Positions 1,529 to 48,790 of a stretch of 64,000 bases of DNA are shown in pieces. The stretch's first letter is position 1. Each line of letters opens with the position of its first letter. Position numbers and translations under genes: made by a program. This stretch comes from Chloroflexota bacterium (GTDB taxonomy: Bacteria > Chloroflexota > Dormibacteria > Aeolococcales > Aeolococcaceae). Location of the stretch: the NCBI GenBank assembly GCA_005880985.1, contig VBIQ01000024.1:6429-70428 (forward strand), given 5' to 3'. Under the pieces are notes generated by a model. The model ran no database searches. It saw nothing but the letters and a program-made list of their open reading frames with translations, and was not told the origin of the DNA.

Positions 1529-2460
1529 CGGTGGTCGGTGACGGTCAGGCGCCGCACGATGAGCACTCCGATGGTCGCAACCAGAGCGCAGGCGGCGAGC
1601 AGCGTCGAACCCAGCGGGGTGAGCGCCGCCTGGAGCGTGGTGGGGGAGGAGGTCACCAGCGCAATCGCGACCAGCGCCGCCAGCGCGGGGACCGCGGCCG
1701 CGACCAGTCGCGCCTCGGCCATGCGGGCGCGCGCGCTGTCGGTGGCCTGCTGCTCGTCCTCCAGCGCGGTGGCCAACCGCCGCAGCGCCTGGCCGGTGCC
1801 AACGCCGGCCTCGGCCGCGATCGCGTAGGTCACGGCCAGGCGGTCGAGACCGTTCCCGCTCTGGGGACCGCGCCGTTCACCGTGGTCGGCAACCACCGAC
1901 GCGATCGCGTTGGCGAAGGCGAATCCTGCCGCCTCGCCGAGCGCGATGCGCGCCACGCCAATCGAGAGGATCTGCTGGGCCAGCGGATCCTCCCTGGCGA
2001 CGCCGTTGCCCACCGCGCCGGCGAGCGCGACCGCCGCGCCGCATCCGCCGGCAATCTCGGCGGCGATGGCTCGCGCCACCACCAGCGCAGCGCGCTCGAG
2101 GGCGTCGGCGCCACGACGCCGTCGCAGCCGGAGCAGCAGCCGGCCTCCGACTCGAACCAGCGACAGCGCCCCACCGGCCGCGGCGACGGCCGACCCGGTG
2201 ATCACCAGGATGGCGGCGGCGACCGGCAGGCTGGCGAGCAACTGGGCGCGCCGCCATCGACTCGGCGACAGCGAGATGCCCGCGCAGCGCAATCGCAGGG
2301 CGAGCCGCCGCGTGCGCGGCCGGCGGTCGTAGGCGGCGGCCGCGCGCCGGCTCGCCACCGCCGCTCGGCGAAACCCGGCGGTCCAGGGAACGCCGTCGAC
2401 CAGCGCGGTCAGCAGCAGGGCGCCCGCGAGCGCTCGGGCCAGCGGCTGCCATGTGCTCAC
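1525..2460 (-). CDS. tadB: Flp pilus assembly inner-membrane platform protein TadB (T2SS-F domain)
   Basis: This is the C-terminal ~312 aa of track ORF 1525..3129(-). It has TM helices at both ends (LLLTALVDGVPW..., ...VPALAALVAIALV...ACALVATIGVLIV). A GTG start ([13 protein letters not shown]...) overlaps the cpaF stop (GTGA). The longer 534-aa frame run-through overlaps cpaF and is rejected. Confidence 0.6.
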   Translation of the reverse strand: MSTWQPLARALAGALLLTALVDGVPWTAGFRRAAVASRRAAAAYDRRPRTRRLALRLRCAGISLSPSRWRRAQLLASLPVAAAILVITGSAVAAAGGALSLVRVGGRLLLRLRRRRGADALERAALVVARAIAAEIAGGCGAAVALAGAVGNGVAREDPLAQQILSIGVARIALGEAAGFAFANAIASVVADHGERRGPQSGNGLDRLAVTYAIAAEAGVGTGQALRRLATALEDEQQATDSARARMAEARLVAAAVPALAALVAIALVTSSPTTLQAALTPLGSTLLAACALVATIGVLIVRRLTVTDHR

Positions 2461-3713
2461 CGAGACTCTTCGGCCGTCGCGAACAGCCCGGGAGGGAAGT
2501 AGACGCCCCGACCGGCCATGCGCTCGAGCACTCGCCGCGGTACGTCGCCGCAGGGCCGAAAGCACGCCCCGCCGTCTTCCACTGTGCGCCGGAAGAGGGG
2601 TGTGATGATCGGTTGATGGTCGGCGGTCGTGTCCAGCGCCGCCACCACCGCCACCGCACGGTCGCCGGCGCTGCTTCGCTCGCAATGCACCAGCAGGTCG
2701 AGCGCCGACAGAACCGGGGTGCGGAGCGCGTGCGCGGGCTGCGCCGGCCATGCCTGCAGGAGCAGGTCGTCGAGCCGCGCCAGTGCGTCGGCGGGACCGT
2801 TGGCGTGAAGGGTGGTCATCGAACCGGCGTGGCCGGTGTTCATCGCGGTGACCATGTCGGCCGCCTCCGGCCCGCGAACCTCTCCGATCACGAGGCGGTC
2901 GGGTCGCATCCGCAGGCTGTTGCGCACCAGGTGACGGAGGGTGACCTCGGCGGTGCCCCCGGGACGCGGTGGCCGGCACTCCTGCCGCACCAGGTGGGCA
3001 TGGTCGATGGCCAGCTCGGCGACGTCCTCGAGGACGATGATCCGCTCGCCGCCAGGCACCAGCGCGCACAGTGCCGCGAGCAGGGTGGTCTTGCCGGTGC
3101 CGGCGCCACCACTGATGAGCAGGTTGCATCGCCCCAGCACCGCGGCGTGCAGGAAGGCCGCCATCTCCGCGCTGAGCGCCTGCGACTCCACCAGCGAGCC
3201 CAGATCGAGACGGCGGCAGGCGGGACGCCGGATGGTCAGCACCGGGCCGTCGACGGCGATGGGCGGCAGCACCGCGTTGAGCCTGCTGCCGTCGGGAAGT
3301 CGCGCGTCCACCATCGGCGCACCGTCGTCGAGACGGCGGCCCGAGGCGAGAAGGAGACGTTCGATCACGGCGCGCACCTGGGCGCTGTCCTGGAAACGCA
3401 CGCCGGTCCGCTGGAGCCGTCCGTCGATCTCGACGAAGACGGCATCGGGGCCGTTGACCATGACCTCGGTGATCGACGCGTCGGTGAGCACCTCCTGGAG
3501 CGGTCCGTATCCGGTGAGCTCGTCGACCATCAACCGCAGCAGACGGTCACGCGGAGGACCCGCGGCGACGCCGTCGGCGCTCAGCCAGCTCTCGACCAGG
3601 ACGGTCACCGCCAGTGGTCGCTGTTCGTCGCCAAGCGGTCCCAACTCACCGTCGAGACCGACCAATCGCTCGCGATACCTCGGGAGCAGGGTGGAGAGAT
3701 CGTCGGCGGTCAC
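2457..3713 (-). CDS. cpaF: CpaF/TadA-family type II/IV secretion ATPase (Flp pilus assembly)
   Basis: Walker [14 protein letters not shown], Walker B/Asp box [11 protein letters not shown], the [15 protein letters not shown] motif and the His box [15 protein letters not shown] are all present. It sits between cpaB and tadB. Confidence 0.9.
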
Positions 3714-4393
3714 GAGCCGCCGCCACTGGCTGGGGGGTGCTCGCTCTCGGGAAGCAGCAGGACGCGGAGCGACTTCGCCGTTCCCTCGGCCGCCATGATG
3801 CGCAGCGCGGCGTCCCGCTCGACCTCCAGCCAGACGGTGGCCGTGTCCGATGGGGCGGTCGGGGCGCCGCCACCGCCGGCACCCGTGCTCGTCGAGCCCG
3901 GTTCAGCGGGGATGACGGCAACGACACGACCGGTGGCAACGGTTCGCGCGGAGACCGCCGCTGTCGGTGCGCCAGGCTCGCCCGCGGCGTCGATCTCGAC
4001 GTCGACACCGGCGAAGACGAAGCTGCCCACGTCGCGGCGTGCGACGCCGAGGGAGATCAGCCGGTGACCGGTGGCCAGAGGCACCGCGGGTGCCAGGGCG
4101 GCGGTGGGGATGCCGGAATCGGCTGGTAGCGCCACCAGCAGACGCCGTCCCTCGACGGCGCGGACGTCGTGAGCGAAGCCGTCCAGCAGGGGAGAGGCCG
4201 GCTGCCGTTTGAGGGCGACGTCGTCGGCGGCCAGGCGACTCAACGCCGGCAACGCGCGGGTGCTGACAACGACGGCGACCTCGGTCCCGGAGACCGCATC
4301 CGGACGGCTGCCCCCGCCGGCGGCGACCAGCAGCAGAGCCGCGCCGCAGGCCCCGACCGCCAGCGTTCGAAGCAGGCGGCGGGAGATGCTCAT
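3710..4393 (-). CDS. cpaB: Flp pilus assembly protein CpaB/RcpC-like (N-terminal TM anchor plus SAF-like domain)
   Basis: 227 aa with an N-terminal signal-anchor (LLRTLAVGACGAALLLVAAGG) and a beta-rich periplasmic region. Its start overlaps the cpaF stop by 4 nt, and it is first in the tad operon order. Confidence 0.6.
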   Translation of the reverse strand: MSISRRLLRTLAVGACGAALLLVAAGGGSRPDAVSGTEVAVVVSTRALPALSRLAADDVALKRQPASPLLDGFAHDVRAVEGRRLLVALPADSGIPTAALAPAVPLATGHRLISLGVARRDVGSFVFAGVDVEIDAAGEPGAPTAAVSARTVATGRVVAVIPAEPGSTSTGAGGGGAPTAPSDTATVWLEVERDAALRIMAAEGTAKSLRVLLLPESEHPPASGGGS

Positions 4394-8644: not shown

Positions 8645-8777
8645 GCGAGCGCCTCACAGCCTGGCCGACGCCACGAGAAGAGTATGCGTCGTGGAAGCCC
8701 CCGGTTGAGGTCATTGGGCACTGCCTCCGCGACCTTCCGGTTTGCACGAGCACGCGGTCGGGCTTACCGTGTAGATC

Positions 8778-9329
8778 ATGGGAGCAGGGTCTGGTGCCGT
8801 CGATATGACCAGGCTGAGCGGGGCCAGGTCCGCGATGCTCGAATGGTGTCTCCAGGGCAGGCTCGAACTGGCCGAGAGCCTCCGCCAGTTGCCTCCGGAG
8901 CAGAGGGTCGAGATCCACGCGGTTGTTGATTATGTCGTCGCCTGTCTGCTCAGCGGTGTCGGGGCGGCACGCTACTGCGCGATCTGCGGTCACTACCGAC
9001 TGGATGCCCTGCGCGGACTGGAGATCCTCGGTGCTTCCGAGCGGCTCACCGATGATGAGCGAGGTCGCGTCAAGGAAACGACCGATCACGTCTCTCATCT
9101 GTATGCGGACGTCTTCGCCGTGAGCGGCGGAGACGCGGACGTTGCGATGCGCGTCCTGCGCACGCTCTGGCTTGTCTTCTTCGGCAATCGCGACGAGATC
9201 AAAGGTGCACCGAGCGCAGACCGCCATGCTCTGCTGGAGTCGCTTCAAGACCTTGACCGAGGGTTGCCGCACCTGCAGCCGCTCGATCGTCAGGAGCTGG
9301 CCAGGTTCATCGCCGCCTTGAGCGCATGA
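8778..9329 (+). CDS. hypothetical protein
   Basis: 183-aa ORF with ordinary (non-Arg/Pro-run) composition, convergent with the FHA-ATPase gene. No recognisable domain. Confidence 0.3.
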   Translation: MGAGSGAVDMTRLSGARSAMLEWCLQGRLELAESLRQLPPEQRVEIHAVVDYVVACLLSGVGAARYCAICGHYRLDALRGLEILGASERLTDDERGRVKETTDHVSHLYADVFAVSGGDADVAMRVLRTLWLVFFGNRDEIKGAPSADRHALLESLQDLDRGLPHLQPLDRQELARFIAALSA

Positions 9330-9338
9330 CGGCGGACG

Positions 9339-10631
9339 CTAGTTGGCGATCGCCGTCGTCTCCAGGCGCTCGATCTGCTCGACGCGAAAACGGCCCTCGT
9401 GCGGAGCCATGCTCACGCTGATGGGGAGGTGTCCCGCGATCTCCTGAGCGGCCGCCACGCGATCGACGTCGTGCGCTGCGAGGATGTCGACCGCGCGGGC
9501 GCGCCAGGCCGCGGCGTCGCCGGTGCGGGCGGCGAGGATGACGGAGATACCGCCGCCGGGGAGCATCCACGTCGCCGCCGCGGCCGCGCCAGGCAGGGCG
9601 TCATCGACGGCGATCCAGTCTGGGCTGAGGGCGAGCGCCGCCTCGACCGCGGCTTCGCCGTGACCCGCGGCGGACCGCACCCGAACCGCCTGTGGGGAAA
9701 CGGTGCGGATTGCGGGGCGCCTCTCGACAACCACGATCCGTGCTCCACGAGGCACCTCGTCGATGAGCGCCTCGAGCATCGACGTTCGTCCGCTGCGGGC
9801 GATGCCGGTGATCAGCACACCCTCCCCGCGCGCCACCACCTGCTGGAGGCCGGCAACGCTCGAGGCATCCAACACCCCGGCTGCGGCGAGGTTGCGCAGG
9901 CCGACGGGCGTTGGTCGGCGCTGCGCGACGAGCACGGGCCGCGCCGTCAGTGGGGGCCGGAACACCTCGACGAGCACGGCCTCGTTGCTCAGGGTGGCAA
10001 CGTAGCCACCGCTTGACGGATCGCTGGAGGTGAGGCGGCAGAGCTGCTCCCACAGCGCATTCCACGCCTTGGCGGTCACCACGCCGGAGCCGGTCTGACC
10101 CCATTCTCCGGCGCGGCGCAAACGGACCTTGGTACCCGGTTCGACGACGAGGTGGGTGATTGCCGGGTCGGCGAAGGCGCGGAACACCTGGCTCACGAAG
10201 GCGCTGGTGCCACCGTCGCCGGCAGCGGGCGGGGATTGCGGTGGAGGCGCGCTCTTCGGCGGAGCGGTGGCCGCCGGCGAGGGTGTCCGGGCCTCTGCGT
10301 TGCCGCCGCCCTCGAGCTCGAGATGCAACTCCACCGGGCCGACGCGGAGGACCGACTTGGCACCGGCGACCGCGGGGACGTTCGGCTTGAGCCGGCGTCC
10401 GTCGAGCATCGAACCGTTGCTCGAATCGAGGTCGGTGACCACCAGCCGGCCTTCCTTGAGGTCGAGCGAGACATGCTGGCGCGACACCTTCGACTCCGGG
10501 TCGAGCGCCGAGAGGTCGCAGTCCAGGGTGCTTGGCGCGCCGTCCTGGTACCGGCCGAGGACCGCGGGGAAGCGGTCGATGCGAACGGTCGATCCGTCCG
10601 CGCCGCGCACGACGACCGCTGCGCTGCTCAT
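9339..10631 (-). CDS. FHA-domain protein fused to a degenerate CpaF/VirB11-like secretion-ATPase domain (probable pseudo-ATPase)
   Basis: The N-terminus is an FHA fold (RFPAVLGR...VSRQHVSLDLKEGRLVVTDLDSSNGSMLDGRRL). A Pro/Ala linker follows. The C-terminus aligns to CpaF-type ATPases but with a degenerate Walker A (GIARSGRTS instead of GxxGxGKT), then RIVVVER, LSPDWIAVDD and LPGGGISVILAART. Its start overlaps the stop of the LAL regulator by 4 nt. Confidence 0.65.
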   Translation of the reverse strand: MSSAAVVVRGADGSTVRIDRFPAVLGRYQDGAPSTLDCDLSALDPESKVSRQHVSLDLKEGRLVVTDLDSSNGSMLDGRRLKPNVPAVAGAKSVLRVGPVELHLELEGGGNAEARTPSPAATAPPKSAPPPQSPPAAGDGGTSAFVSQVFRAFADPAITHLVVEPGTKVRLRRAGEWGQTGSGVVTAKAWNALWEQLCRLTSSDPSSGGYVATLSNEAVLVEVFRPPLTARPVLVAQRRPTPVGLRNLAAAGVLDASSVAGLQQVVARGEGVLITGIARSGRTSMLEALIDEVPRGARIVVVERRPAIRTVSPQAVRVRSAAGHGEAAVEAALALSPDWIAVDDALPGAAAAATWMLPGGGISVILAARTGDAAAWRARAVDILAAHDVDRVAAAQEIAGHLPISVSMAPHEGRFRVEQIERLETTAIAN

Positions 10632-12700
10632 GGCGCCGCCATCATCGACAGGGGTCGGTGCACTGTCAATTCAGTGCCGGGGCCGGTGCGGGTGGATGCG
10701 GTGGCGGCACTGTGCCGGTGGTCGGGCTGGACGACCCACGACGCGAGCTGGGTCCGGTTGTCGAGCCGGAGCTTCTGCAGGATGCGGCCCACGTGATGAT
10801 CGACGGTGCGATGGCTGATCGACAGCCGCGCCGCGATCGTCCGGTTGGTGAGGCCCTCGGCGACCAGGGCGCAGACCTCGAGCTCGCGCTCGCTCAGCGC
10901 CTCGCGCGACGCCGGGCGTCCACGCGCCAGGGACCGCTCGATCCGGGCCAGCTCGGCGAGGGCGCCGCAGGCGTGCGCCAGCTGTCGCGCTTCGGCCAGC
11001 GCGGAGGCCGCTGCGGTCGGACGTCCGTTGGCGTCAGAGGCGACGCTGAGGACCCGCAGGGACCGAACGCGCTCCAGGGGGGACACGAGCCGCTGTGCGA
11101 TCGCCTGTTCGGCGGCGTGCAACCCCCCTGCCGTGTCACGCAGCGCCATGCACACCAGTGCGCGCGAGCGGGCGCGAAGTTCCACGGTGAGCGGTGCCGT
11201 CGTACCGGCGGTGAGCGCGTCCAGCCGTTCGACGGCAGCGGTCGCGTTGCCCACCTGCCCTCGGACAAGCTCGGTCTCGACAACGTCGGGAAGCATCGCC
11301 GTCTCGCCGGCAACCGAGCGACACCCTGCCTGGGCGCGGACGGCCCAGGACAGCCACCGGGCGGCGGCGTCGGGACTGCCGCTGTTGGCCAGCGCCCGAC
11401 CCGCCGCCCACGCCGACCACGCCGCGGGGCGAAGTCCCAGCGCCTGCCGGTCGAGGGCGAGCAGCGCGCCGACGACGCGCCGGATGGCCGGCTGGTCGGC
11501 CCGGTCCGCGGCGACCAGGGCTTCCAGGCCCAAGCGGTATGGCGCTGCTGCCGGGAGCACGCGGTCGATGTCGGCGCACGCCGCCAGCAGCGCGGTGCAC
11601 TCCTCGAGCTCTCCGGTCCGCCACCGGCACCACGCCAGGGTGAGAGCCGCGCGCATGTGCGCCGGTCCCGGTGGCTGGCCGTCGAGCGAACGCATCCCGG
11701 CGAGCGCTCGGGTCGTGGCGCCGTCCGCGTCTCCCGCGAGCAGGAGTGCCTGGGCGAGCGCCGGCATCACGTCCGGCACTCGACGCCCGGACATGGCTGC
11801 CTCGGCGCGCTCGATGTGCCGCTCGACCTGCGGTGCATCACCGAGTTCGGCGACCGCGACCGCCGCCAGCGCCTGCGCGTGAGCGGCGGCGCCGGCGTCC
11901 CGGATCGTGGCGGCCGCGGCCAGCGCCTCGCCGGCCAGGTGCAGCGCGCTCGAGGGCGACCCGGATTCGAGAACGCTCCACCCGCGCAGTACGGTGATCC
12001 GGCATTCCCGAGGCTGGTCGCGGCGGGAGGCGCCGTCCGTGCCCGTGGTGGGACGGAAATCACCGGTGGGGATACGCACGCTGCGCAGCGCCTGCTCGAG
12101 GCGGACGCGGTCGTAGCGCGTCCGGTGTCGCGGCGCCAGCTCGTCGGCGAGTGCGGCCAGTACGCCGGGGGTGCCGTTTGCTGACCGCACCAGATGCTCG
12201 ACGAGCGCAGGGCTCAAACGCAGTGCGGTACCGGCCCGCTGCTCGAGCATGGCGATCGAGTCGTCGACGTCGAGGTGGCGCAGTAGCAACCGGCGTCCCG
12301 TGCCCTCGTCGATGCATCGGCGGAGGGGAGCGAGCACACCATTCTGTCCGCGCCCAGGCGGGGTTGTGCACGAGGCGACCAGCAGGACCCACGGGGGACT
12401 GATGGCGTTCGCTGCGAGAATGGTGACGAGCCTGGCGTCCAGGCGGTCGGCGTCGTCGGCGAGGACGACCAGCCGGCGGGAGACCCCGGCCGCGCCATCG
12501 AGGCGCGCCTGCAGGTCACCAGCGGTGACGCCATCGTTGGTCAGGTCCAGCACCTCGAGACCTTGAGCGGTGGCGGCCGCGGCCAGCCATCGCACCAGCG
12601 CCGTCCGCCCGCTGCCGGGGCCGCCCTCGATGAGCGCCGTCGAGGGACCGGCGCCGGAGAGCGCGGCGAGCAGCAGCGACTGCTCGTCTGAACGTCCCAC
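10628..12700 (-). CDS. LAL-family transcriptional regulator (N-terminal AAA/STAND ATPase, TPR-like middle, C-terminal LuxR HTH)
   Basis: The P-loop GGPGSGRTAL is near the N-terminus and the C-terminal LuxR box is ELEVCALVAEGLTNRTIAARLSISHRTVDHHVGRILQKL. The start is set at the GTG/TTG near Val171 of track ORF 10628..13210. The upstream 170 codons are Arg/Ser-rich and overlap the divergent gene. Confidence 0.75.
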   Translation of the reverse strand: MGRSDEQSLLLAALSGAGPSTALIEGGPGSGRTALVRWLAAAATAQGLEVLDLTNDGVTAGDLQARLDGAAGVSRRLVVLADDADRLDARLVTILAANAISPPWVLLVASCTTPPGRGQNGVLAPLRRCIDEGTGRRLLLRHLDVDDSIAMLEQRAGTALRLSPALVEHLVRSANGTPGVLAALADELAPRHRTRYDRVRLEQALRSVRIPTGDFRPTTGTDGASRRDQPRECRITVLRGWSVLESGSPSSALHLAGEALAAAATIRDAGAAAHAQALAAVAVAELGDAPQVERHIERAEAAMSGRRVPDVMPALAQALLLAGDADGATTRALAGMRSLDGQPPGPAHMRAALTLAWCRWRTGELEECTALLAACADIDRVLPAAAPYRLGLEALVAADRADQPAIRRVVGALLALDRQALGLRPAAWSAWAAGRALANSGSPDAAARWLSWAVRAQAGCRSVAGETAMLPDVVETELVRGQVGNATAAVERLDALTAGTTAPLTVELRARSRALVCMALRDTAGGLHAAEQAIAQRLVSPLERVRSLRVLSVASDANGRPTAAASALAEARQLAHACGALAELARIERSLARGRPASREALSERELEVCALVAEGLTNRTIAARLSISHRTVDHHVGRILQKLRLDNRTQLASWVVQPDHRHSAATASTRTGPGTELTVHRPLSMMAAP

Positions 12701-13025
12701 CAAGACGTGGCCCCCGCTCGCCGCCCTGCCTGCGGCCCCCCTCGCAGTCGGCACCGACGAAGTATCGCACCGTCTGCGCCCGTGTACGTGCGACGGCAAT
12801 GGGCAATTTCGCCGATGCCGGTCCCCTGGGAACCGGCTGGCCGCCGGCGGGGCCGTGGCCGCCCAGATCAGGGCCAGGACCGGCGCGGGTATCGGACAGC
12901 GCCGATCGGTCTTTGTCCACGCAATAGGCCATCTCGCCGATGACACCTCTGGCCCGGCGGCAGAGACTGTCGGGCAGACGAGGTGGTCGGGCCGCTGTGG
13001 TCTGGACCGACGAGGGGGGACGACC
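12701..13025. promoter_or_regulatory. divergent intergenic/promoter region between the LAL regulator operon and the first Nif11-leader-like giant protein gene; RBS GAGGGGGGA about 9 nt upstream of the GTG at 13026
   Basis: 325-bp non-coding gap between divergent starts. The purine-rich Shine-Dalgarno element is the same one seen upstream of paralogs 4-6 (AAGAGGGGGxCxCATG). Confidence 0.4.
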
Positions 13026-16000
13026 GTGGCAGATGCGGCATTCCGCACCGTGGTGGCCCGCATGGCCGCCGACCCCGAGTTCGCGGCCCGAGTGCGCGGC
13101 GATGCGACCTCGGCTCTGGCGGAGTTCGACCTGACCGACGAGGAGCGCGCCCAGCTTGCGCTGCTCGAGTCCGACACCACCTCCTCCGCCGCCAATCTCG
13201 GACAACGCATCAGCAGGTCGTCGCTGTTCTTCGGCGGGTCCGGCGGCAGCGCGCCGCCGGGGACCGTGCCGCACGCCGCCGCCGAGGAGGCCGTGCAGGT
13301 GGCCCAGGCGGGCGATCAGCCGGTGGTCACCGTGCACGAGACGGCGGCGCACGCCATGGCGGCGTCGGGACAGGCGGATCCGACCCTGGCCTCGGCCGAC
13401 CTGGGGCAGGGCGGCCAGCCGAGCCTCGCCTCCGAGATCCAGCACGAGCACGACCTCGATCGGCAGATCGCCGAGTTGCGCATCGAGCGCGATCTGCTCG
13501 ATGCCCGGATCACCGAGCAGACCCTCGCCGGTGGCGGCGATCCCGGGCTCACGTCTCCGGGTGACGGAGGGGCGATGGTTCCGGGCGGTCTGGGGCACGG
13601 CGTGCCCGGTGGTGTCGGCGGGTCGCCGCTCGAGGCGATCCCGTCGCTCGGTCACCCGCACCCCGGCGCACCCCACGGCGGCATGCCTCCCGGGGCGGTG
13701 GCGCATGCGGAAGCGCGCCATCCCGGCGCCCCGGCGGGGCACGCGGGTGGCGGCGTCCCCGGGGCACCGGCGGTGCATCCGGGAGGTGGCAGTCAACCAG
13801 GGGTCCAGGCGCCCGGTGCAGGGGCGGGTTCGGCCGCAACCCCGCACGGCGCCGGAGCGCCGCCGGTGCCTCCCTGGGCGCACCCCGGCGCGATCGCCGC
13901 CGCCGCGCACCCCGGCTCGGCGGCCGCGCCACCGTCGCCGGCGGGGCATGGGCAGCATTCGTTCGGCGGTGGCGCGGTGCGCCCGGGTGCCGGCGCCGGC
14001 GCCGCGACCGCTCCGCATGCGCCCGGCACAACGCAACACCCGGGTGCCGGTGCGGGCACCGCGAGCGCGCCGCATCCGCAGACGGCGGCGCCCGTCCCCG
14101 ACAGCGTCTCGCACTTCGCGCGGTCGGTCCAGGACTACGTGCACCGAACCCACCATCAGCCGAGCGAGGAGTGGTACACGTATCTGCGCCAGCACGGCGC
14201 GCCGCCCGCCGATGACAACTACGGGCCCCCCCCCGTGCATCCCGGGTTCACCGCCCCACGCCCCGGGACGCCCTTCGGACCGTCACCCGCGGCTCCCACC
14301 GTCTCGCCCCAGGACGCGCAGCTGCTACCGCACACCGGCGACCCGGTGGTCGACGCCGCCAACCAGCACATCCTCGCGGACTACCTGCAGCACTACCACC
14401 ACCGGCCGACCGATGCGTGGTTGGCGTACTTCCGCGATTTCGGTCATCCGCCCAAGGACGACCTCTTCGGCATGCCTGGGCACCCTCACCCTGACGGGCC
14501 TCCGGCGGTCGGCCTCAAGCCAAAGCCCGACACGACGACCACCACGTCCAAGCCACCCAAGCCCGGCACCACGACCGGAGGCGGTGGCGGTGGTGGCCGT
14601 CCCAGCGGCGGCGGTGGCGCCGGCGCAAGTGGTGGCCATCCCGGCGGAGGAAGTGGTGGTGGTGGGCAGCCAGCCGGTGGCGGCGGTGGGGGAGGTCACG
14701 GCGGTCACAGTGGTCCCACCCAGCCCGGCGGCAGGGGTGCCAACCCTGATCCGTGGGGAAGCATGGGCGTGCAGGACCCGGGACAGTGGCAGGAGCCGCA
14801 CCCCGGTCCGCATCCGCCGCACCCCGGTGACGGGACGGGCGACCACGGCAAACACGTGCCACCGACGCCCGACTCCACGCACGATCACCTGGGACCTCAC
14901 GGTGAGCTGATCAAGGCCGACGGCAGCCCCATCCTGGGACCACATGGCGAGCTGCTCGGCGCCGACCACAAGCCCATTCTCGGCACCAGTGGCGAACTTC
15001 TCGGACCAGGGATGCAGGGGGTGTTGGGGCCCCACGGCGAAATCGTCGGTCCCGACGGCAAGCCTATCCTGGGCGAGAACGGCGAGATCCTGGGGCGCGA
15101 CGGCTCGCCGCTCACCGGCCCGCACGACGAGATCCTCGGCCCGAATGGAAAGCCGATCCTCGGTGATCACGGCGAGATCCTCGACTTCCACAGCGACCCG
15201 ATCACCGGGCCCCACGACGAGATTCTCGGCCCCGATGGCAAGCCGATCCTCGGAGCCCATGGCGAGATCCTCGACGTCGACGGCAAGTCGATGGTGGGCA
15301 GCAGCGGCGAGATCCTCGGCCCCGACGGGAACCCCGCGCTCGGCCAGCACGGCGAGATCATCCATCCCGACGGATCGCCCTTCCTCGGCAATCTCGGCGA
15401 GCTGCAGGGACCCAACGGCATCCCCGCGCACGGGTCGCACGGGGAGATCCTCGGCCCCGACGGTACGCCGCTCCTTGGGGCGAACAACGAGCTGCTCCGT
15501 CCCGACGGGGATTCGCTCACCGGCGCTCACGGCGAGATCCTCGGTCGCGACGGCACGCCGATCACCGGGTCGCACGGCGAGATCCTCGACCCCGACATGC
15601 ACCAGCTCACCGGTGGGCATGGCGAGATCCTCGGTCCCGACGGCACTCCGGTTTTGGGCAGCAATGGCGAGATCCTGAACACCGACGGCAACGCGATCCT
15701 CGGCAACAATGCCGAGCTGCTCAAGCCCGACGGCACCCCGGTGACCGGTCCGCACGGCGAGGTCCTGGGCGATGGCGGGGCGCCCCTATTGGGTCCCGAC
15801 CACGAACTGCAGGACGCGAACTTCGCACCGATTCTCGGTTCCCATGGGGAGATCCTGGGGGGCGACGGCATGCCGGTGTTGGGCGGCAACGGCGAGCTGA
15901 TGGGCCCCGGCGGACAGCAGATCCTGGGCTCTCATGGCGAGATCCTCGACAGCGGTGGGAAACCGATCCTGGGTCTGAACGGCGAGATCCTCGACACCAA

Positions 16001-16760: not shown

Positions 16761-18521
16761 GTGCTCTGTCCACAGTGTCACATCCACACGGACCCGGACT
16801 TCCCCTACTGCCTGCGCTGCGGGCGTCAGCAGGGCAACGGTTCCCTGAGCGGCTGGGCCCCGCCCGAGTTGCACCCGGTGGAAGCACCCGCGGTCGCCTT
16901 CCCGCTGGTGAAGCGCTCGGTCTCGGTCGGACGCGATGACGCCAACGACATCGTCGTCGAGGACGGTCGGGCGTCACGTCAGCATGCCCGGGTGGTCCGC
17001 GACCAGCAGGGCTATCGCGTCGAGGATCTCGACTCCCTGAACGGCACCTGGGTGAACGACGAGGTGGTGCGCGACTCCGGCCGCCGCCTCAATGATGGAG
17101 ACCTCATCCGCCTCGGGGCAACGCAGCTGCGCTTCGAGCAGCCGCGCACCTCGACGGTGGGGGGTCGGACGGTCGTCGACCTGGCACGGACGACGATGGT
17201 GCAGACCAGCACCGGTGGCATCCGTGAAGGCGACTCGGATGCCGCCGCCGGACCGCCGCTCGACCGCAGGCCCCGGCGCCACTCCGGCTGGGAGCTGAAG
17301 CAGGTTGCATCGGCGCAGAGCGAGCCGCGCTACGTGCTCCGCAACGCGCGCACCGGCCAGTACCTCCAGCTCACCGATCGCGATGTCTTCCTCTGGAACC
17401 TGCTCGACGGGGAGCACACCATCCGCGACCTGCTGCTCGCCTACGCGCAGCAGTACGGGCAGCTGGCGCTCGCACGCATCCAGGGACTGATGTCGCAGCT
17501 CGACGGTGCCGGGCTGATCGCTGGATGGCGGACCGCTCCGCCCGCGCAGTCTCCGGTCAGCGGTCTCCGTCGCGCGGGTCGTGCCACGGTCAAGGCCCTG
17601 ACCCGGATGGAGCTGGCCGTCGGTGGCATCGACGGGTTCCTGGGCCGCTTGTACACGCGTGTCGGCTGGTGGTTCTTCAGCCGTGCCGGCCAGGTCGTCG
17701 TCTGGGGACTGGTCGTGGCCGGGATCGTGGCGTTCTCGGAGGTGCGCAAGAACCAGCGACCCTTCGAGATCGCCGGTGCGGGCATCTGGGGAGTCGTCGC
17801 CGCATTTGCCGGCTACGTTCTCGCACTCACCATCCACGAGCTCGCCCACGCGCTCGCGGTGAAGTCGTACGGTCGGAGGGTCCACCGGGGCGGCCTGATG
17901 GTGATGATGGCGATGCCCTACGCGTTCGTCGACACCAGCGACATGTGGTTCGAGTCACGACGCGCCCGGATCGCCGTCTCCGTGGCCGGCCCGGCGTCCA
18001 CCGCGATGCTCGGGGGGATCCTGTCGCTCGGTGCGGCCTTCCTGCCGGGAGCCATCGCACCCGGCATCTGCTTCCAGGTCGCCTTCGGCCTCTACATCAA
18101 CACCGTTTTCAACCTCAATCCGCTCATCCCGCTCGACGGGTACTACGTCCTCATCGACCTCCTCGATCGCCCCCGTCTCAAGGAGGAGGCGGGCGCCTAC
18201 TTCCGCAAGGGACTCTGGGCCGACCTCCGGCACGGACGTCTGCCCGGCGCCGGTCAGCTGGCCCTTGCCGTCTACGGGGGCATCTCCTTCATCTCCACCA
18301 TCGGGTTCCTGCTGCTCGGCGTCTATGTCTGGCGGACCAGGCTGAGCACCCCCATCCGTGACCACGTCCCCGCGCCCCTCGACCAGGTCATCGTCGTCCT
18401 CGGACTCATCCTGCTGTTCTTCCCCGTGTGGTATGGACCGCTGACCAAACTCTCGCGGGTGGTGCGCCGCCGGCTGGAGAAGCTGCAAACGCCGGTGCAA
18501 CCGCAGCAGGTGCCGGCATGA
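16761..18521 (+). CDS. zinc-ribbon / FHA-domain / M50 (site-2-protease-type) intramembrane metalloprotease fusion
   Basis: N-terminal CPQC...CLRC zinc ribbon. FHA domain (VSVGRDDANDIVVEDGRASRQHARVVRDQQGYRVEDLDSLNGTWVNDEVV...GDLIRLGATQLRF). A polytopic membrane region follows, with the HExxH motif (IHELAHALAV) and the M50 NxxPxxxLDG motif (NLNPLIPLDGYYVL). Confidence 0.8.
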   Translation: MLCPQCHIHTDPDFPYCLRCGRQQGNGSLSGWAPPELHPVEAPAVAFPLVKRSVSVGRDDANDIVVEDGRASRQHARVVRDQQGYRVEDLDSLNGTWVNDEVVRDSGRRLNDGDLIRLGATQLRFEQPRTSTVGGRTVVDLARTTMVQTSTGGIREGDSDAAAGPPLDRRPRRHSGWELKQVASAQSEPRYVLRNARTGQYLQLTDRDVFLWNLLDGEHTIRDLLLAYAQQYGQLALARIQGLMSQLDGAGLIAGWRTAPPAQSPVSGLRRAGRATVKALTRMELAVGGIDGFLGRLYTRVGWWFFSRAGQVVVWGLVVAGIVAFSEVRKNQRPFEIAGAGIWGVVAAFAGYVLALTIHELAHALAVKSYGRRVHRGGLMVMMAMPYAFVDTSDMWFESRRARIAVSVAGPASTAMLGGILSLGAAFLPGAIAPGICFQVAFGLYINTVFNLNPLIPLDGYYVLIDLLDRPRLKEEAGAYFRKGLWADLRHGRLPGAGQLALAVYGGISFISTIGFLLLGVYVWRTRLSTPIRDHVPAPLDQVIVVLGLILLFFPVWYGPLTKLSRVVRRRLEKLQTPVQPQQVPA

Positions 18522-20176
18522 CCGCGACAGCCGTCGGTCCCTTCACGGTCGTCGCCGAGCTCGGCGGGGGGCGCCTTGGTCCGCTCTTCCTCGGCCGCCA
18601 CAGCACGTCAGGTGAGGCAGTCTGTCTGCGTCAGCTGGACCCGGCCTTGCTCGCACATCCGGAAGCCCGCGAGGCGGTCGTCCGTGCGGTGCGTCGCATC
18701 GCGACCACCGAGGCTCCGGGCGTCATCCGAGTCATCGATCTGCTCGAGTCGGGCAACCAGTGGTACCTGGTCAGCGCCCACGTCCCGGGCCCGACGCTGC
18801 GAGACCTGCTCGATCGGTCCCAGGCGCCACGCCTGCACGGCTTCATCGGCGATCCCAGCGCCGCCGCGGTGGTCCTCGGCGACGTCGGCCGAGCCTGCCT
18901 TGCCCTCCACGGTGCCGGCGTGGCTCACGGATCCCTGGGGCCGGCCTCGATCCTCTGCTCCGTCGACGGGGTCGCCCGTCTCGCCGACCCTGCGCTGCTG
19001 GCGATCACCACCGGCACCGCGACCGGGCCAGCCGCGGATGCACGCAGCTGGGGCGACCTCGCTCTTGTCCTGCGGCGGGCCTGGGTTCCGGCCAGAGAGG
19101 GCAGCAACTTCGACCGCGCCGCAGACCGGGCCGAGGCGGGAGACCTCCGGGCCGCAGTCGACACGCTCGACGGTCGCGAGCAGGGGGCGCGAGCGCGACT
19201 CGCCGTGGCGGCATCCGCGTGGGAGGCGACACGCTCGGCCTCGCCGGCGCCGTCCGCCTCGGCGGCAGTTCCCCTGTCCGCGGCAACGTCCGGCTCGGAG
19301 CGACCGACACTGCTCGACATCCCCGGTGCGTCGAGCGCGGCCGACGGCGGTCGTGCAACCGTGATCGAGCCGCCGCCCGCACCGCGGCCGTCGGCAATCC
19401 CGCCACCGCAGCAGACGGTGATCGAACCGCCGGTTCCCGCGCTGCGCGCCTCCGCCAGCGAGACCGTCATCGATCGGCCGCCGCCGAGGGCGGACCCGGT
19501 TGCACCCGCGGCCGGTGCGACCGTCGTCGATCGGCCACCGCCGGTGCCGCCGACAGTGCCACCGCCGGCAGGGTCGCCGCATCGTCTCGGCGCGACCCGG
19601 GCGGCACCTGCCGTGGACCCGCCGCCCACCCGCGCTGCGGGCGGGGTCCGTCCCGGCTCGATGGGTGGCGATGGAAGCGGCACCGCATCCAGTTCCTTGC
19701 TGGTCAGCGACCTCGCCGGTGGCGGCGGACTCCAGCCGGCCTGGCCGGCACCCGCGCCGCGCAGGCGGGAGACGCGCTACCCGCTGCTCATCGGCGCCGC
19801 GGTCGCGGTCGCCGTCATCGTCATCGGTGGTGTCCTGCTGGGCGTCATCCTCCGCCACGGCCAATCGCTGCAGGCCACCGCCGCCCAGGTGCAGATCGCG
19901 ACGCCGCAGGTGGGCTGCAACAGCACCGTCGACGTGGTCGGAGTGATCGGCCTCAACGGCCAGGCGGGAACCGTGGACTACGAGTGGCAGCGCAACGACA
20001 GCACCTCCACCGGAGGCGTGCAGCATCAGACCGTCTCCAGCGGCCAGCAGCAACTGGTCGCGCACCTGTCGTGGTCGCTGTCCGGCCCTGGGACGTTCCA
20101 GGGTCTCGCCACGCTGATCGTCCGCAGTCCCAATGCCCTGGCGCCGGCGCAGGGCAGCTTCCGCTACGTGTGCTGA
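18518..20176 (+). CDS. membrane-anchored protein-kinase-like (probable pseudokinase) protein with TVIE/DPPP repeats and extracytoplasmic C-terminal domain
   Basis: ATG at 18518 overlaps the M50 gene stop (ATGA). The N-terminus has a kinase N-lobe-like fold (FTVVAELGGGRLGPLFLGRH...AVCLRQL...VIRVIDLLESGNQWYLVSAHVPGPTLRDLL). The HRD-region lacks catalytic Asp (GVAHGSLGPASIL) and there is no DFG. The repeats are 4x (T/Q)TV(I/V)(E/D)xPPP. A TM helix LLIGAAVAVAVIVIGGVLLGVIL is followed by a ~130-aa C-terminal domain. Confidence 0.6.
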   Translation: MTATAVGPFTVVAELGGGRLGPLFLGRHSTSGEAVCLRQLDPALLAHPEAREAVVRAVRRIATTEAPGVIRVIDLLESGNQWYLVSAHVPGPTLRDLLDRSQAPRLHGFIGDPSAAAVVLGDVGRACLALHGAGVAHGSLGPASILCSVDGVARLADPALLAITTGTATGPAADARSWGDLALVLRRAWVPAREGSNFDRAADRAEAGDLRAAVDTLDGREQGARARLAVAASAWEATRSASPAPSASAAVPLSAATSGSERPTLLDIPGASSAADGGRATVIEPPPAPRPSAIPPPQQTVIEPPVPALRASASETVIDRPPPRADPVAPAAGATVVDRPPPVPPTVPPPAGSPHRLGATRAAPAVDPPPTRAAGGVRPGSMGGDGSGTASSSLLVSDLAGGGGLQPAWPAPAPRRRETRYPLLIGAAVAVAVIVIGGVLLGVILRHGQSLQATAAQVQIATPQVGCNSTVDVVGVIGLNGQAGTVDYEWQRNDSTSTGGVQHQTVSSGQQQLVAHLSWSLSGPGTFQGLATLIVRSPNALAPAQGSFRYVC

Positions 20177-34925: not shown

Positions 34926-34935
34926 CGAGTCGGTC

Positions 34936-43688: not shown

Positions 43689-43749
43689 CGCTTAGAGTGT
43701 GCCGCCAAGGTGGTCACCGGCTCTTGCCGGTGGATGAGGGAGGACAACC

Positions 43750-48573: not shown

Positions 48574-48790
48574 TAGCCGCTAGACCACTGGCCGCCGGAC
48601 CACTGGCCGCCGGACCACTGGCCGCCGGACCATTGGCCGCCGGACCACTGACCGCCGGACCACTGACCGCCGGACCACTGGCCGCCGGACCACTGGCCGC
48701 CGGACCACTGGCCACCCGACCACTGGCCACCCGACCACTGGCCGCCGGACCACTGTCCACCCGACCACGTCGTCGTGCCGGCCCAGCTGG
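48573..48790 (-). repeat. about 13 tandem 15-bp repeats (ggaccactggccgcc) encoding the pentapeptide array WSGGQ at the C-terminus of the S8 peptidase
   Basis: Direct reading of 48576-48790 on the plus strand. Confidence 0.85.

What the first reader, a model, noticed from the sequence alone, without database searches (positions are those of the whole stretch)
9339..10631. FHA domain fused to a CpaF/VirB11-like ATPase domain with a degenerate Walker A (GIARSGRTS), co-operonic with the LAL regulator
The C-terminal half retains the CpaF-like blocks RIVVVER, LSPDWIAVDD and LPGGGISVILAART, but the catalytic Lys of GxxGxGKT is replaced by Arg in a non-canonical loop. This suggests a regulatory pseudo-ATPase. 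It could hetero-oligomerise with the bona fide CpaF (2457-3713) 6 kb away or act as a phospho-dependent checkpoint. A 4-nt overlap couples it to the upstream AAA+LuxR regulator.
Basis: partly seen in the sequence, partly recalled or inferred. Interest (0 to 1): 0.65.

Follow-up and report, generated by a model that had tools for sequence, protein, structure and literature searches.

The report
FHA-fused, catalytically degenerate CpaF-like protein
This gene encodes a phosphothreonine-binding FHA domain joined to a pilus-motor (CpaF/TadA-type) ATPase fold that has lost nearly all its catalytic residues, so it is most likely a signalling adaptor and not a motor; it belongs to a small, undescribed soil-metagenome family.

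Summary
Window 9339-10631 (minus strand) is a real 430-aa gene with four parts: an FHA domain (Pfam E 1e-9), a disordered Pro/Ala linker, a CpaF-type N-terminal domain, and a RecA-like ATPase domain. The AlphaFold2 model has pLDDT 90. Foldseek's best PDB hits are TadA/CpaF (E 2e-18). hhalign against the window's own CpaF gives 97% probability.

The P-loop has canonical spacing (GxxxxGRTS) but Arg replaces the catalytic Lys. The Walker B Glu is Asp, both His-box histidines are gone, and all three CpaF arginine fingers are gone. P-loop Thr283 and Asp-box Glu303 remain. The genuine CpaF 6 kb away contains one Lys in 418 residues, its Walker A Lys, so GC bias does not explain the loss.

All 15 members of the core family lack the Lys (Arg, Leu or Asn). 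The family has 13 representatives among 1.84 billion and comes only from metagenomes. FHA fusion appears to be general in it.

Among more distant CpaF-like hits, FHA fusion goes with degenerate motifs: 26 of 59 against 2 of 76.

The 4-nt overlap with the LAL regulator is real but was seen only in this species. No relative I could inspect sits in a Tad operon.

Verdict: a new pseudo-enzyme variant of the known FHA-CpaF architecture. Its partner is unknown. Interest is moderate.

The parts
9339..10631 (-). Whole gene, 430 aa plus stop: FHA, disordered linker, CpaF-like N-terminal domain, degenerate ATPase domain. Identical to NCBI TMC47657.1, 'MAG: FHA domain-containing protein [Chloroflexota bacterium]'.
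10311..10631 (-). FHA domain (aa 1-107). The phosphothreonine-binding residues G26-R27, S50-R51-x-H53 and N72-G73 are present. It also carries a family-specific 'PDCDL' insert.
   Evidence: Pfam PF00498 E 1.3e-9; 11-strand beta sandwich in the model, pLDDT >90; invariant columns in A3
10215..10310 (-). Pro/Ala-rich intrinsically disordered linker (aa 108-139). In relatives it ranges from about 35 to about 400 aa, with PPGM-type repeats.
   Evidence: pLDDT <50 for residues 112-137; P0159, L001 and L011 upstream frames
9900..10214 (-). One helix (aa 140-154) where CpaF has its three-helix bundle, followed by the CpaF-type N-terminal domain (aa 158-244). The arginine-finger motif '[10 protein letters not shown]' of the N-terminal domain is replaced by 'GGYVATLSNEA'. 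The 'RRP' segment is retained.
   Evidence: CpaF residue roles from PMC12019362
9342..9899 (-). RecA-like C-terminal ATPase domain (aa 245-430) with degenerate catalytic motifs.
   Evidence: Foldseek top hits TadA/CpaF 8rjf E 2.1e-18, 8rkd, 9e24, VirB11, FlaI; hhalign 97.3% against the window's CpaF
9780..9806 (-). Walker A equivalent GIARSGRTS (aa 276-284). Spacing is canonical, Lys is replaced by Arg282, and Thr283 is kept.
9714..9740 (-). Asp-box equivalent RIVVVERRP (aa 298-306). The Mg-coordinating Glu303 is kept and is invariant in the family; the following Asp is replaced by Arg.
9594..9623 (-). Walker B equivalent PDWIAVDDAL (aa 337-346). CpaF 'IVGE' becomes 'AVDD', so the catalytic Glu is Asp344. 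The preceding arginine finger (CpaF R347) becomes Ala334.
9522..9563 (-). His-box equivalent LPGGGISVILAART (aa 357-370). Both histidines are lost; the second is Arg369, which is conserved in the family.
10628..12703 (-). Upstream co-directional AAA(STAND)+LuxR 'LAL' regulator. Its TGA stop overlaps the ATG of the FHA gene (ATGA). Its real start is probably TTG 12703 or GTG 12700, not ATG 13210. Its own Walker A reads GPGSGRT, also Lys to Arg.
10641..10669 (-). The only sigma-70-like consensus match in 8700-13300: TTGACA-17-GATGAT, ending 9 nt before the ATG. It is a possible internal promoter giving a near-leaderless transcript. This is a consensus match only.
   Evidence: 1 found against 0.2 expected

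Best explanation
The gene encodes a non-catalytic derivative of the FHA-fused ('class III') CpaF/TadA pilus-motor ATPase.

Shown:
- It keeps the architecture FHA, disordered linker, N-terminal domain, RecA-like ATPase domain, and it keeps the fold.
- The FHA domain keeps its phosphothreonine-binding residues.
- The nucleotide site keeps the P-loop glycines, Thr283 and the Mg-binding Glu303.
- It has lost the Walker A Lys (now Arg), the catalytic Walker B Glu (now Asp), both His-box histidines and all three arginine fingers.

Inferred:
- It cannot drive a hydrolysis cycle. At most it binds nucleotide, as engineered Lys-to-Arg P-loop mutants such as RecA K72R do.
- It therefore acts as a scaffold or switch. 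The FHA domain docks it onto a protein phosphorylated on Thr by a Hanks-type kinase encoded elsewhere. The dead ATPase module then supplies a (possibly oligomeric, possibly nucleotide-dependent) interaction surface.
- In this genome its synthesis is translationally coupled to a LAL-type AAA+LuxR regulator. The most economical output is therefore modulation of that regulator and of the divergently transcribed cluster (NHLP-leader giant proteins, FHA-RRE-metalloprotease, pseudokinase).
- Across the family the partner is not fixed.
For: Architecture and fold:
- AF2 pLDDT 90.3 with four clear modules.
- Foldseek best PDB hits are TadA/CpaF at E 2e-18, followed by VirB11, FlaI and PilB.
- hhalign against the window's CpaF gives 97.3% probability, E 1.7e-11, over 211 columns.
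- PDB profile hits are VirB11 (8.7e-6) and CpaF (1.6e-3).

Catalytic residues, mapped onto the roles described for C. crescentus CpaF in PMC12019362 through the alignments:
- K287 becomes R282; T288 is kept; E312 is kept.
- E357 becomes D344; R347 becomes A334.
- R217 and R223 are lost; both His-box histidines are lost.

The loss is conserved:
- All 15 core-family sequences lack the Lys (11 Arg, 3 Leu, 1 Asn).
- 13 of 15 have DD at Walker B. 14 of 15 have Arg at the second His position.

Internal control against GC or Lys-poverty bias: the bona fide CpaF in the same window has exactly one Lys in 418 aa, its Walker A Lys. The target has 7 Lys, none of them in the P-loop.

The gene is not a relic:
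- GC3 is 0.85.
- There are 13 representatives at E<=1e-30, 30-70% identical.
- Invariant family-specific residues include W177, W190, E222, G276, R298, E303, R309 and R317.

The FHA domain looks functional: G26, R27, R51, H53 and G73 are invariant in the six aligned FHA-bearing members; S50 and N72 are present in five, and P0004 has Gly at both positions.

FHA fusion goes with degeneration. Among non-core hits, 26 of 59 degenerate sequences carry an FHA domain against 2 of 76 canonical ones (Fisher p 1.6e-9).

The genes are orphans:
- Relatives' loci are not Tad operons.
- More distant degenerate FHA-T2SSE genes in Myxococcota and others pair with a 2xFHA protein, and in one locus a Ser/Thr kinase gene lies divergently upstream.
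- One family member is followed directly by a Pkinase gene.

LAL coupling: the ATGA overlap is seen in the window and preserved in two further metagenome contigs of the same species.
Against: - No biochemical data exist. Arg at the Walker A position and 'hhhhDD' at Walker B are compatible with nucleotide binding, and residual or slow hydrolysis cannot be excluded.
- No phosphorylated ligand or active kinase is identifiable in the 64-kb window.
- LAL pairing is absent from the other family loci, so the proposed output is specific to this genome and rests on operon structure alone.
- Most relatives' contigs are only 2-9 kb, so a Tad locus a few kb away, as in this window, would not have been seen.
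- One relative has a divergent Flp pilin gene.
- The deep alignment used for the AF2 model includes canonical ATPases. That helps it recover the fold but says nothing about function.
Confidence: 0.55

Rival explanations
1. It is a regulatory subunit of the neighbouring Tad/Flp pilus motor. The dead CpaF-like module co-assembles with, caps or poisons the genuine CpaF hexamer (2457-3713) or competes for its platform proteins. That would make pilus assembly depend on Ser/Thr phosphorylation sensed by the FHA domain.
For: - A Tad-type set lies 5.6 kb away: a T2SSF platform protein at 587-1528, CpaF at 2457-3713 and a SAF/CpaB-like gene at 3710-4393.
- The module is CpaF-derived and keeps both domains that form the packing units of the hexamer.
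- Family member P0006 has a divergent Flp pilin gene immediately upstream.
- FHA-fused active CpaF proteins exist in Tad-like systems: class III CpaF and KilF.
Against: - The gene is not in the Tad operon. Unrelated genes (methyltransferase, membrane protein, oxidoreductase, others) on both strands lie between them.
- It shares only about 26% identity with the local CpaF, so it is not a recent paralogue.
- Nine of the ten relatives' loci show no Tad gene in view.
- Distant degenerate FHA-T2SSE genes on 13-85 kb contigs are also outside pilus loci.
- The arginine finger that acts in trans at the hexamer interface (CpaF R347) is lost, so a mixed hexamer would be catalytically disrupted. That fits a poison subunit, but it is not evidence for one.
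Confidence: 0.2
2. It is an active but atypical ATPase. Arg282 would substitute for the P-loop Lys and Asp343/Asp344 would form a classical hhhhDD Walker B. On this reading the protein is a working FHA-regulated motor of a divergent kind.
For: - The P-loop spacing GxxxxG-R-T-S is intact, with Thr283 and the Mg-binding Glu303 invariant or nearly so.
- Pocket-lining positions D343, D344 and R369 are conserved in the family. This suggests the site is still under selection.
Against: - The family tolerates Leu (3 members) or Asn, with a scrambled loop in P0011, at the Lys position.
- All three arginine fingers and both His-box histidines, which couple hydrolysis to domain motion in CpaF, are missing.
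- Engineered Lys-to-Arg or Lys-to-Ala Walker A mutants of this superfamily are inactive. CpaF K287A has no ATPase activity.
Confidence: 0.1
3. It is a decaying, functionless remnant of a duplicated FHA-CpaF gene.
For: Multiple catalytic motifs are degenerate. The family is very rare and patchy.
Against: - The ORF is intact, with GC3 0.85.
- Thirteen or more diverged lineages (30-70% identity) keep full length, the same architecture and family-specific invariant residues.
- The model is confident (pLDDT 90).
- The ATGA coupling is preserved.
Confidence: 0.03

Closest known systems
CpaF/TadA, the Tad (Flp) pilus motor ATPase (C. crescentus CpaF, PDB 9e24; TadA/CpaF 8rjf and 8rkd)
   Same: It has the same two-domain core, an N-terminal domain plus a RecA-like C-terminal ATPase domain. 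These are the best structural matches (Foldseek E 2e-18 to 5e-17). hhalign against the window's own CpaF gives 97%. The P-loop spacing, P-loop Thr and Asp-box Glu are retained.
   Different: - The Walker A Lys is Arg and the Walker B Glu is Asp.
- The His box and the three arginine fingers (R217, R223, R347) are lost.
- The three-helix bundle is reduced to one helix.
- The segment after the P-loop is about 60 aa shorter.
- The Pfam T2SSE score is below the gathering threshold.
- The gene is not in a Tad operon.
Class III CpaF (FHA-IDR-3HB-NTD-CAD; e.g. Achromobacter xylosoxidans E3HIW0) and Myxococcus xanthus KilF
   Same: It has the same overall architecture: an N-terminal FHA domain tethered by a disordered linker to a CpaF core (PMC12019362 and PMC8460266).
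   Different: Those proteins are treated in the literature as the working hexameric ATPases of their Tad or Kil machines and are encoded in the machine's gene cluster. This one is catalytically degenerate and orphan. Class III is reported mostly from Betaproteobacteria, whereas this family comes from high-GC soil MAGs labelled Chloroflexota.
Myxococcus xanthus PilB acting as a signalling protein
   Same: This is a precedent (PMC5544727, title and abstract as listed) for a PilB/CpaF-superfamily ATPase used as a regulator of another pathway (exopolysaccharide production), in addition to its motor role.
   Different: PilB is still an active motor with intact motifs and has no FHA domain. I read only the title and abstract.
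Phospho-dependent FHA adaptors of secretion machines (the P. aeruginosa T6SS FHA pathway; archaeal ArnA)
   Same: An FHA domain reads Thr phosphorylation and controls assembly or expression of a surface machine (PMC8460266 discussion; PMC4858521).
   Different: Those adaptors carry no ATPase-derived module.
More distant FHA + degenerate T2SSE proteins paired with a 2xFHA protein (Myxococcota and other metagenome contigs; P0019, P0035, P0036)
   Same: They have FHA at the N-terminus. Their CpaF-like core has GSGRT, or GKT combined with a DD-type Walker B, and no His box. They lie outside pilus loci.
   Different: They are only about 20-25% identical and 560-780 aa long. They are always followed by a two-FHA protein, which is absent here. 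They are not part of the core family. I found no description of them in the literature searches.

Membership tests
PilT/VirB11-like secretion ATPase superfamily (Pfam T2SSE PF00437; CpaF/TadA branch) | Two-domain fold: N-terminal domain plus RecA-like C-terminal ATPase domain | tested here: met
   AF2 pLDDT 90. Foldseek gives TadA/CpaF E 2e-18 and VirB11, FlaI, PilB and PilT all at E<1e-11. hhalign gives 97.3%.
PilT/VirB11-like secretion ATPase superfamily (Pfam T2SSE PF00437; CpaF/TadA branch) | Score above the curated family threshold | tested here: not met
   PF00437 scores 16.3 bits against a 24.9 cut-off. TIGR03819 scores 41 bits against 373.
PilT/VirB11-like secretion ATPase superfamily (Pfam T2SSE PF00437; CpaF/TadA branch) | Walker A GxxGxGK[ST] with the catalytic Lys | tested here: not met
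   The motif reads GIARSGRTS. Arg282 sits at the Lys position in every alignment. All 15 core family members lack Lys.
PilT/VirB11-like secretion ATPase superfamily (Pfam T2SSE PF00437; CpaF/TadA branch) | Asp box (E-D) with the Mg-stabilising Glu | tested here: inconclusive
   Glu303 is retained and invariant. The adjacent Asp is Arg, and varies as W/P/L/S/M in relatives.
PilT/VirB11-like secretion ATPase superfamily (Pfam T2SSE PF00437; CpaF/TadA branch) | Atypical Walker B hhhhGE with the catalytic Glu | tested here: not met
   The motif is IAVDD, so Gly-Glu becomes Asp343-Asp344.
PilT/VirB11-like secretion ATPase superfamily (Pfam T2SSE PF00437; CpaF/TadA branch) | His box with two conserved histidines | tested here: not met
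   The segment is LPGGGISVILAART, with Gly and Arg369 at the His positions.
PilT/VirB11-like secretion ATPase superfamily (Pfam T2SSE PF00437; CpaF/TadA branch) | Arginine fingers (CpaF R217 and R223 in the N-terminal domain; R347 acting in trans) | tested here: not met
   '[10 protein letters not shown]' is replaced by 'GGYVATLSNEA'. 'LRMRPER' is replaced by 'ALALSPDW'. Based, with residue roles from PMC12019362.
PilT/VirB11-like secretion ATPase superfamily (Pfam T2SSE PF00437; CpaF/TadA branch) | ATP hydrolysis and hexamer formation | not testable with these tools
   This needs purified protein or multimer modelling.
PilT/VirB11-like secretion ATPase superfamily (Pfam T2SSE PF00437; CpaF/TadA branch) | Encoded within a pilus or secretion gene cluster together with platform proteins | tested here: not met
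   The nearest Tad genes are 5.6 kb away, beyond unrelated genes. Relatives' loci lack Tad genes apart from one Flp pilin gene.
Class III CpaF architecture (FHA-IDR-3HB-NTD-CAD; PMC12019362) | N-terminal FHA domain joined by a disordered region to the CpaF core | tested here: met
   FHA spans aa 5-107, the disordered region 112-137 (pLDDT <50), and the core 140-422. Full-length relatives all carry FHA plus a Pro-rich linker.
Class III CpaF architecture (FHA-IDR-3HB-NTD-CAD; PMC12019362) | Three-helix bundle before the N-terminal domain | tested here: not met
   The model has a single helix (aa 140-154) before the first strand of the N-terminal domain.
FHA domain (PF00498) | Score above threshold and the phosphothreonine-pocket residues (GR ... 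SxxH ... NG) | tested here: met
   38.7 bits against a 20.7 cut-off. G26-R27, S50-R51-Q-H53 and N72-G73 are present. G26, R27, R51, H53 and G73 are invariant in the six aligned FHA-bearing members; S50 and N72 hold in five, and P0004 has Gly at both positions. Actual pThr binding was not tested.
LAL (large ATP-binding LuxR) regulator operon partner | Conserved co-operonic pairing of the FHA gene with the LAL gene across the family | tested here: not met
   The ATGA overlap is found here and in two same-species contigs. A 4-nt overlap with an unread upstream gene is seen in the 68% relative. Other members have a ferredoxin reductase, SDR, Ig-like or other gene upstream.

The most novel reading that the evidence does not exclude
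FHA-fused, CpaF-derived pseudo-ATPases could be a previously unrecognised and fairly widespread class of phosphothreonine-gated signalling hubs that have been detached from pili. In this genome the compact member would work with its translationally coupled LAL regulator. Together they would switch on the adjacent system of six NHLP-leader giant proteins, an FHA-RRE-intramembrane metalloprotease, a membrane pseudokinase and a PrsW protease. That would link Ser/Thr phosphorylation to a RiPP-style leader-dependent processing or export pathway for very large proteins.
Probability: 0.2. Interest if true: 0.7.

Novelty: new variant of a known kind. Interest (0 to 1): 0.45.

Why it matters
PilT/VirB11-type ATPases are studied almost only as motors. 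If this reading is right, there is a conserved lineage that keeps the motor fold and a phosphothreonine reader but has dropped the catalytic machinery. That would be a bacterial pseudo-enzyme comparable to eukaryotic pseudokinases.

It would also help explain a pattern seen here: FHA fusions to CpaF-like cores are strongly enriched among catalytically degenerate sequences (26 of 59 against 2 of 76).

For annotation, such genes should not be counted as pilus or secretion ATPases. The finding also gives a concrete handle, the FHA ligand, for finding what Ser/Thr kinase signalling controls in these uncultured soil bacteria. The practical impact is modest until a partner is identified.

Tried and rejected
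1. Word-indexed homologue searches returned only 3-5 proteins, because FHA-sharing candidates swamp the 8000-candidate filter. The exhaustive representative search was needed to see the family.

2. Two pattern scans of 185,579 species-representative genomes found no relative. No cultured or named genome carrying the family could be identified. This is pattern-limited and does not prove absence.

3. The metagenome scan gave only 4 loci.

4. The AFDB fold library was unavailable, so UniProt-annotated structural neighbours could not be listed.

5. I looked for a conserved neighbour. PNPOx_N lies convergent downstream in 3 loci and a ferredoxin reductase lies upstream in 3. The window's downstream gene (8778-9329) is unrelated to the PNPOx gene. 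I rejected the idea of a conserved operon.

6. I considered that the 'FHA-less' family members form a separate architecture and rejected it. They are truncated gene calls: P0159, P0161 and the upstream in-frame Pro-rich sequence show this.

7. I considered GC-driven Lys-to-Arg drift as the cause of the P-loop change and rejected it. The local CpaF keeps its single Lys exactly there.

8. dN/dS could not be estimated. The only close DNA (99.5% identical) differs at 6 sites, 4 synonymous and 2 non-synonymous.

9. Literature searches for pseudo-ATPase or degenerate FHA-VirB11/T2SSE proteins returned nothing.

Full report
**1. The observation**

The finding's coordinates delimit an ORF on the minus strand. 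It runs from ATG 10631 to the stop at 9339-9341 and is 430 aa. Third-position GC is 0.85 against 0.56 at second positions, the signature of a real gene in this 71% GC sequence. The protein is identical to NCBI TMC47657.1, 'MAG: FHA domain-containing protein [Chloroflexota bacterium]', from a 226-kb contig.

Pfam finds an FHA domain at residues 26-98 (E 1.3e-9, above threshold). It finds only a sub-threshold T2SSE match at 240-342 (E 4e-3). NCBIfam's best hit for the C-terminal part is the TadA family TIGR03819 (E 1e-10, far below its cut-off).

The upstream gene's TGA overlaps the ATG in the sequence ATGA.

**2. What the C-terminal part is**

A profile of the C-terminal 290 residues from the three closest homologues matches solved VirB11 (E 8.7e-6) and CpaF (E 1.6e-3). 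It aligns to the genuine CpaF in the same window with 97.3% hhalign probability (E 1.7e-11, 211 columns, 26% identity).

An AlphaFold2 model built on a 141-sequence alignment is confident (mean pLDDT 90.3). Its parts are:
- an FHA beta-sandwich (aa 5-107);
- a disordered Pro/Ala linker (aa 112-137, pLDDT <50);
- a single helix (aa 140-154);
- an alpha/beta N-terminal domain (aa 158-238);
- a RecA-like domain (aa 245-422).

Foldseek against the PDB ranks TadA/CpaF first (8rjf E 2.1e-18, 8rkd, 9e24). VirB11, FlaI, PilB, DotB and PilT follow.

**3. State of the active site**

Residue roles come from the CpaF cryo-EM study (PMC12019362). In that study K287 contacts the gamma/beta-phosphate. T288 and E312 hold Mg2+. 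E357 is the Walker B glutamate. R347 is the trans arginine finger, and R217 and R223 are the arginine fingers of the N-terminal domain.

Through the alignments these map as follows:

| CpaF residue | Target |
|---|---|
| K287 | R282 |
| T288 | T283 (kept) |
| E312 | E303 (kept, invariant in the family) |
| E357 | D344 ('IVGE' becomes 'AVDD') |
| R347 | A334 |
| R217 / R223 ('[10 protein letters not shown]') | lost ('GGYVATLSNEA') |
| two His-box histidines | Gly and R369 |

The P-loop is not aberrant in length. It fits GxxxxG-x-[ST] exactly, so 'non-canonical loop' is an overstatement. The second refutation criterion, 'intact P-loop on careful alignment', is still not met.

A useful internal control rules out GC-driven Lys depletion as the explanation. 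The genuine CpaF at 2457-3713 contains exactly one lysine in 418 residues, the Walker A lysine. The target has seven lysines, none of them in the P-loop.

**4. The family**

An exhaustive HMMER search of 1.84 billion representatives with the C-terminal profile found 13 proteins at E<=1e-30. After a gap the general CpaF/T2SSE population follows: 161 at E<=1e-10 and 2955 at E<=1e-3.

In all 15 core sequences the Lys is absent: Arg in 11, Leu in 3 and Asn, within a scrambled loop, in 1. Walker B is DD in 13. The second His position is Arg in 14.

Family-specific residues are invariant or nearly so (W177, W190, W339, E222, R298, E303, R309, R317). The core forms a closed nearest-neighbour group. 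This is a conserved, selected state and not decay.

All members come from metagenomes, mostly soil, in clusters of 1-5 sequences. Two pattern scans of 185,579 reference genomes found none.

Members that seemed to lack an FHA domain are truncated gene calls. Longer cluster members (P0159 at 767 aa, P0161 at 408 aa) and the upstream reading frames carry the FHA domain and Pro-rich linkers of up to about 400 aa. The architecture FHA, disordered linker, N-terminal domain, degenerate ATPase domain therefore appears general.

**5. A wider pattern**

Among the 135 non-core hits, 76 have canonical K + GE motifs and 59 are degenerate. Of the degenerate ones, 35 lack the Lys (26 of these have Arg) and 24 keep Lys but lack GE.

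An FHA signature is present in 26 of the 59 degenerate sequences but in only 2 of the 76 canonical ones (Fisher p 1.6e-9). The query profile contained no FHA region, so query bias does not explain the enrichment. The degenerate sequences are heterogeneous in nearest-neighbour terms, which suggests several lineages.

I inspected three on long contigs (Myxococcota and others). They lie outside pilus loci. Each is followed by a protein with two FHA domains. In one locus a Ser/Thr kinase gene lies divergently upstream.

**6. Genomic context**

In the window the gene is the distal member of a two-gene unit with an AAA(STAND)+LuxR 'LAL' regulator. That regulator's annotated ORF start at 13210 is almost certainly too long. 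The likely start is TTG 12703 or GTG 12700. This leaves about 320 bp of divergent intergenic DNA before the first giant gene, whose likely start is GTG 13026.

The same arrangement occurs in two other soil metagenome contigs of the same species, 99.5% nt identical. The 68%-identical relative also overlaps an upstream same-strand gene by 4 nt, but its DNA could not be read.

In the other ten family loci the neighbours differ:
- ferredoxin reductase upstream in three;
- a short-chain dehydrogenase (SDR) upstream in two;
- a convergent PNPOx-like gene downstream in three;
- an Ig-like protein upstream and a protein kinase downstream in one;
- a divergent Flp pilin gene in one.

So there is no conserved operon partner, and the LAL pairing is lineage-specific.

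The Tad-type genes of the window are a T2SSF gene at 587-1528, CpaF at 2457-3713 and a SAF/CpaB-like gene at 3710-4393. They are separated from the target by a methyltransferase, a membrane protein, an oxidoreductase and other unrelated genes. No active Hanks kinase or PP2C phosphatase is encoded in the 64 kb.

A single sigma-70-like match (TTGACA-17-GATGAT) ends 9 nt before the ATG. It may give the gene its own near-leaderless transcript. It is only a consensus match.

**7. Mechanism**

Shown: the fold, the architecture, intact FHA pocket residues, the retained P-loop glycines with Thr and Mg-Glu, and the conserved loss of the hydrolysis and coupling residues.

Inferred from established knowledge:
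- Walker A Lys-to-Arg mutants such as RecA K72R bind ATP but hydrolyse it very poorly.
- CpaF K287A is inactive.
- The protein therefore cannot run a motor cycle. At most it binds nucleotide.
- It most plausibly acts as a phosphothreonine-recruited scaffold or switch.
- Its output in this genome is most economically the LAL regulator it is translationally coupled to, and through it the divergent cluster.
- A role as a poison or regulatory subunit of the Tad motor remains possible. The local context does not specifically support that role, and the contexts of relatives argue against it.

**8. Comparison with what is known**

FHA-CpaF fusions are described as 'class III CpaF' (PMC12019362) and as KilF in the Myxococcus Kil system (PMC8460266). 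In both cases they are presented as the working ATPase within the machine's gene cluster. The present protein shares the architecture, except that the three-helix bundle is reduced to one helix. It fails every catalytic-motif test and the operon-membership test.

It should not be filed as a CpaF/TadA ATPase. It is a pseudo-enzyme derivative of one. Four literature searches for such degenerate FHA-secretion-ATPase proteins found no description.

**9. Verdict**

The 'pseudo-ATPase' interpretation is supported and strengthened. The specific ideas of CpaF hetero-oligomerisation and of a conserved LAL or Nif11 association are unsupported or lineage-specific.

Novelty: a new variant of a known kind. 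Interest: moderate (0.45). It is a clean, conserved pseudo-enzyme case with an intriguing FHA-degeneration correlation. It is also rare, known only from metagenomes, and has no identified partner.

Noticed in passing
window 13026-33231 (+), six genes starting at about 13026, 20190, 21186, 24240, 26540, 28837: Six large proteins (about 330 to 1470 aa) have low-complexity, repeat-rich bodies. Each begins with a ~60-aa leader matching NCBIfam NF038399 'Os1348 family NHLP clan protein' (E 2e-6 to 2.5e-11; one is above the cut-off). A conserved 'LGQRLSKSSLFFG' + Gly-run motif follows the leader. These are RiPP-type NHLP-clan leaders on giant proteins, not strictly Nif11 leaders.
   Followed up: partly
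window 16761-18521 (+): This protein combines a zinc ribbon, an FHA domain, a PqqD-like RiPP recognition element and an HExxH intramembrane metalloprotease. Its best NCBIfam hit is the daptide-biosynthesis intramembrane metalloprotease (E 5.5e-39, below cut-off). It is a leader-recognising protease carrying its own phosphothreonine reader, set among the NHLP-leader giant genes.
   Followed up: partly
window 18428-20176 (+): This is a membrane-anchored pseudokinase. The Pkinase fold is detected (E 9e-8), but VAIK reads 'VCLRQ' (Lys to Arg), HRDLKPxN reads 'HGSLGPAS' and DFG reads 'DPA'. It adds to the pseudo-ATPase and the LAL Walker A Lys-to-Arg as a third degenerate nucleotide site in the same cluster.
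   Followed up: partly
window 10628-13210 (-): The LAL (AAA+LuxR) regulator's own Walker A is GGPGSGRT, with Arg for Lys. The first ~170 codons of the mechanical ORF overlap the opposite-strand giant gene and look non-coding. The likely true start is TTG 12703 or GTG 12700.
   Followed up: partly
window 2457-3713 (-): The bona fide CpaF/TadA (PF00437 E 3.5e-54) contains a single lysine in 418 residues, and it is the Walker A lysine (GAGTGKT). This is a striking example of extreme Lys depletion with only the catalytic Lys preserved.
   Followed up: yes
window 33255-35033 (-): A PrsW-family intramembrane protease (E 6e-15) with a long C-terminal membrane and Ala/Gly-rich extension closes the NHLP-leader cluster on the opposite strand.
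   Followed up: no
L012 10001-13582; L013 10001-13777; L015 1330-3993: In Myxococcota and other metagenome contigs, distant FHA + degenerate T2SSE genes (GSGRT, or GKT with a DD Walker B) are each immediately followed by a gene encoding two FHA domains (with weak TPR hits in one case). They lie outside any pilus locus. In L012 a Ser/Thr kinase gene is divergent upstream. This looks like a conserved, undescribed two-gene module.
   Followed up: partly
L011 880-1364; L001 1-260; protein P0159: Family members carry very long Pro-rich linkers made of 'GAPPP/PPGMG' repeats (up to about 400 aa) between the FHA domain and the ATPase-like core. Gene callers start these genes inside the repeat and so miss the FHA domain.
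   Followed up: yes
window 10641-10669 (-): The only sigma-70-like promoter match in 8700-13300 (TTGACA-17-GATGAT, 10 of 12 positions) lies inside the 3' end of the LAL gene and ends 9 nt before the FHA gene's ATG. This would imply a near-leaderless transcript.
   Followed up: no
window 42456-43691 (-) and 46066-48579 (-): An adenylate cyclase with an Ad_Cy_reg domain and a GAF-GGDEF-EAL protein lie downstream of the cluster. I did not examine these second-messenger genes for any link to the locus.
   Followed up: no
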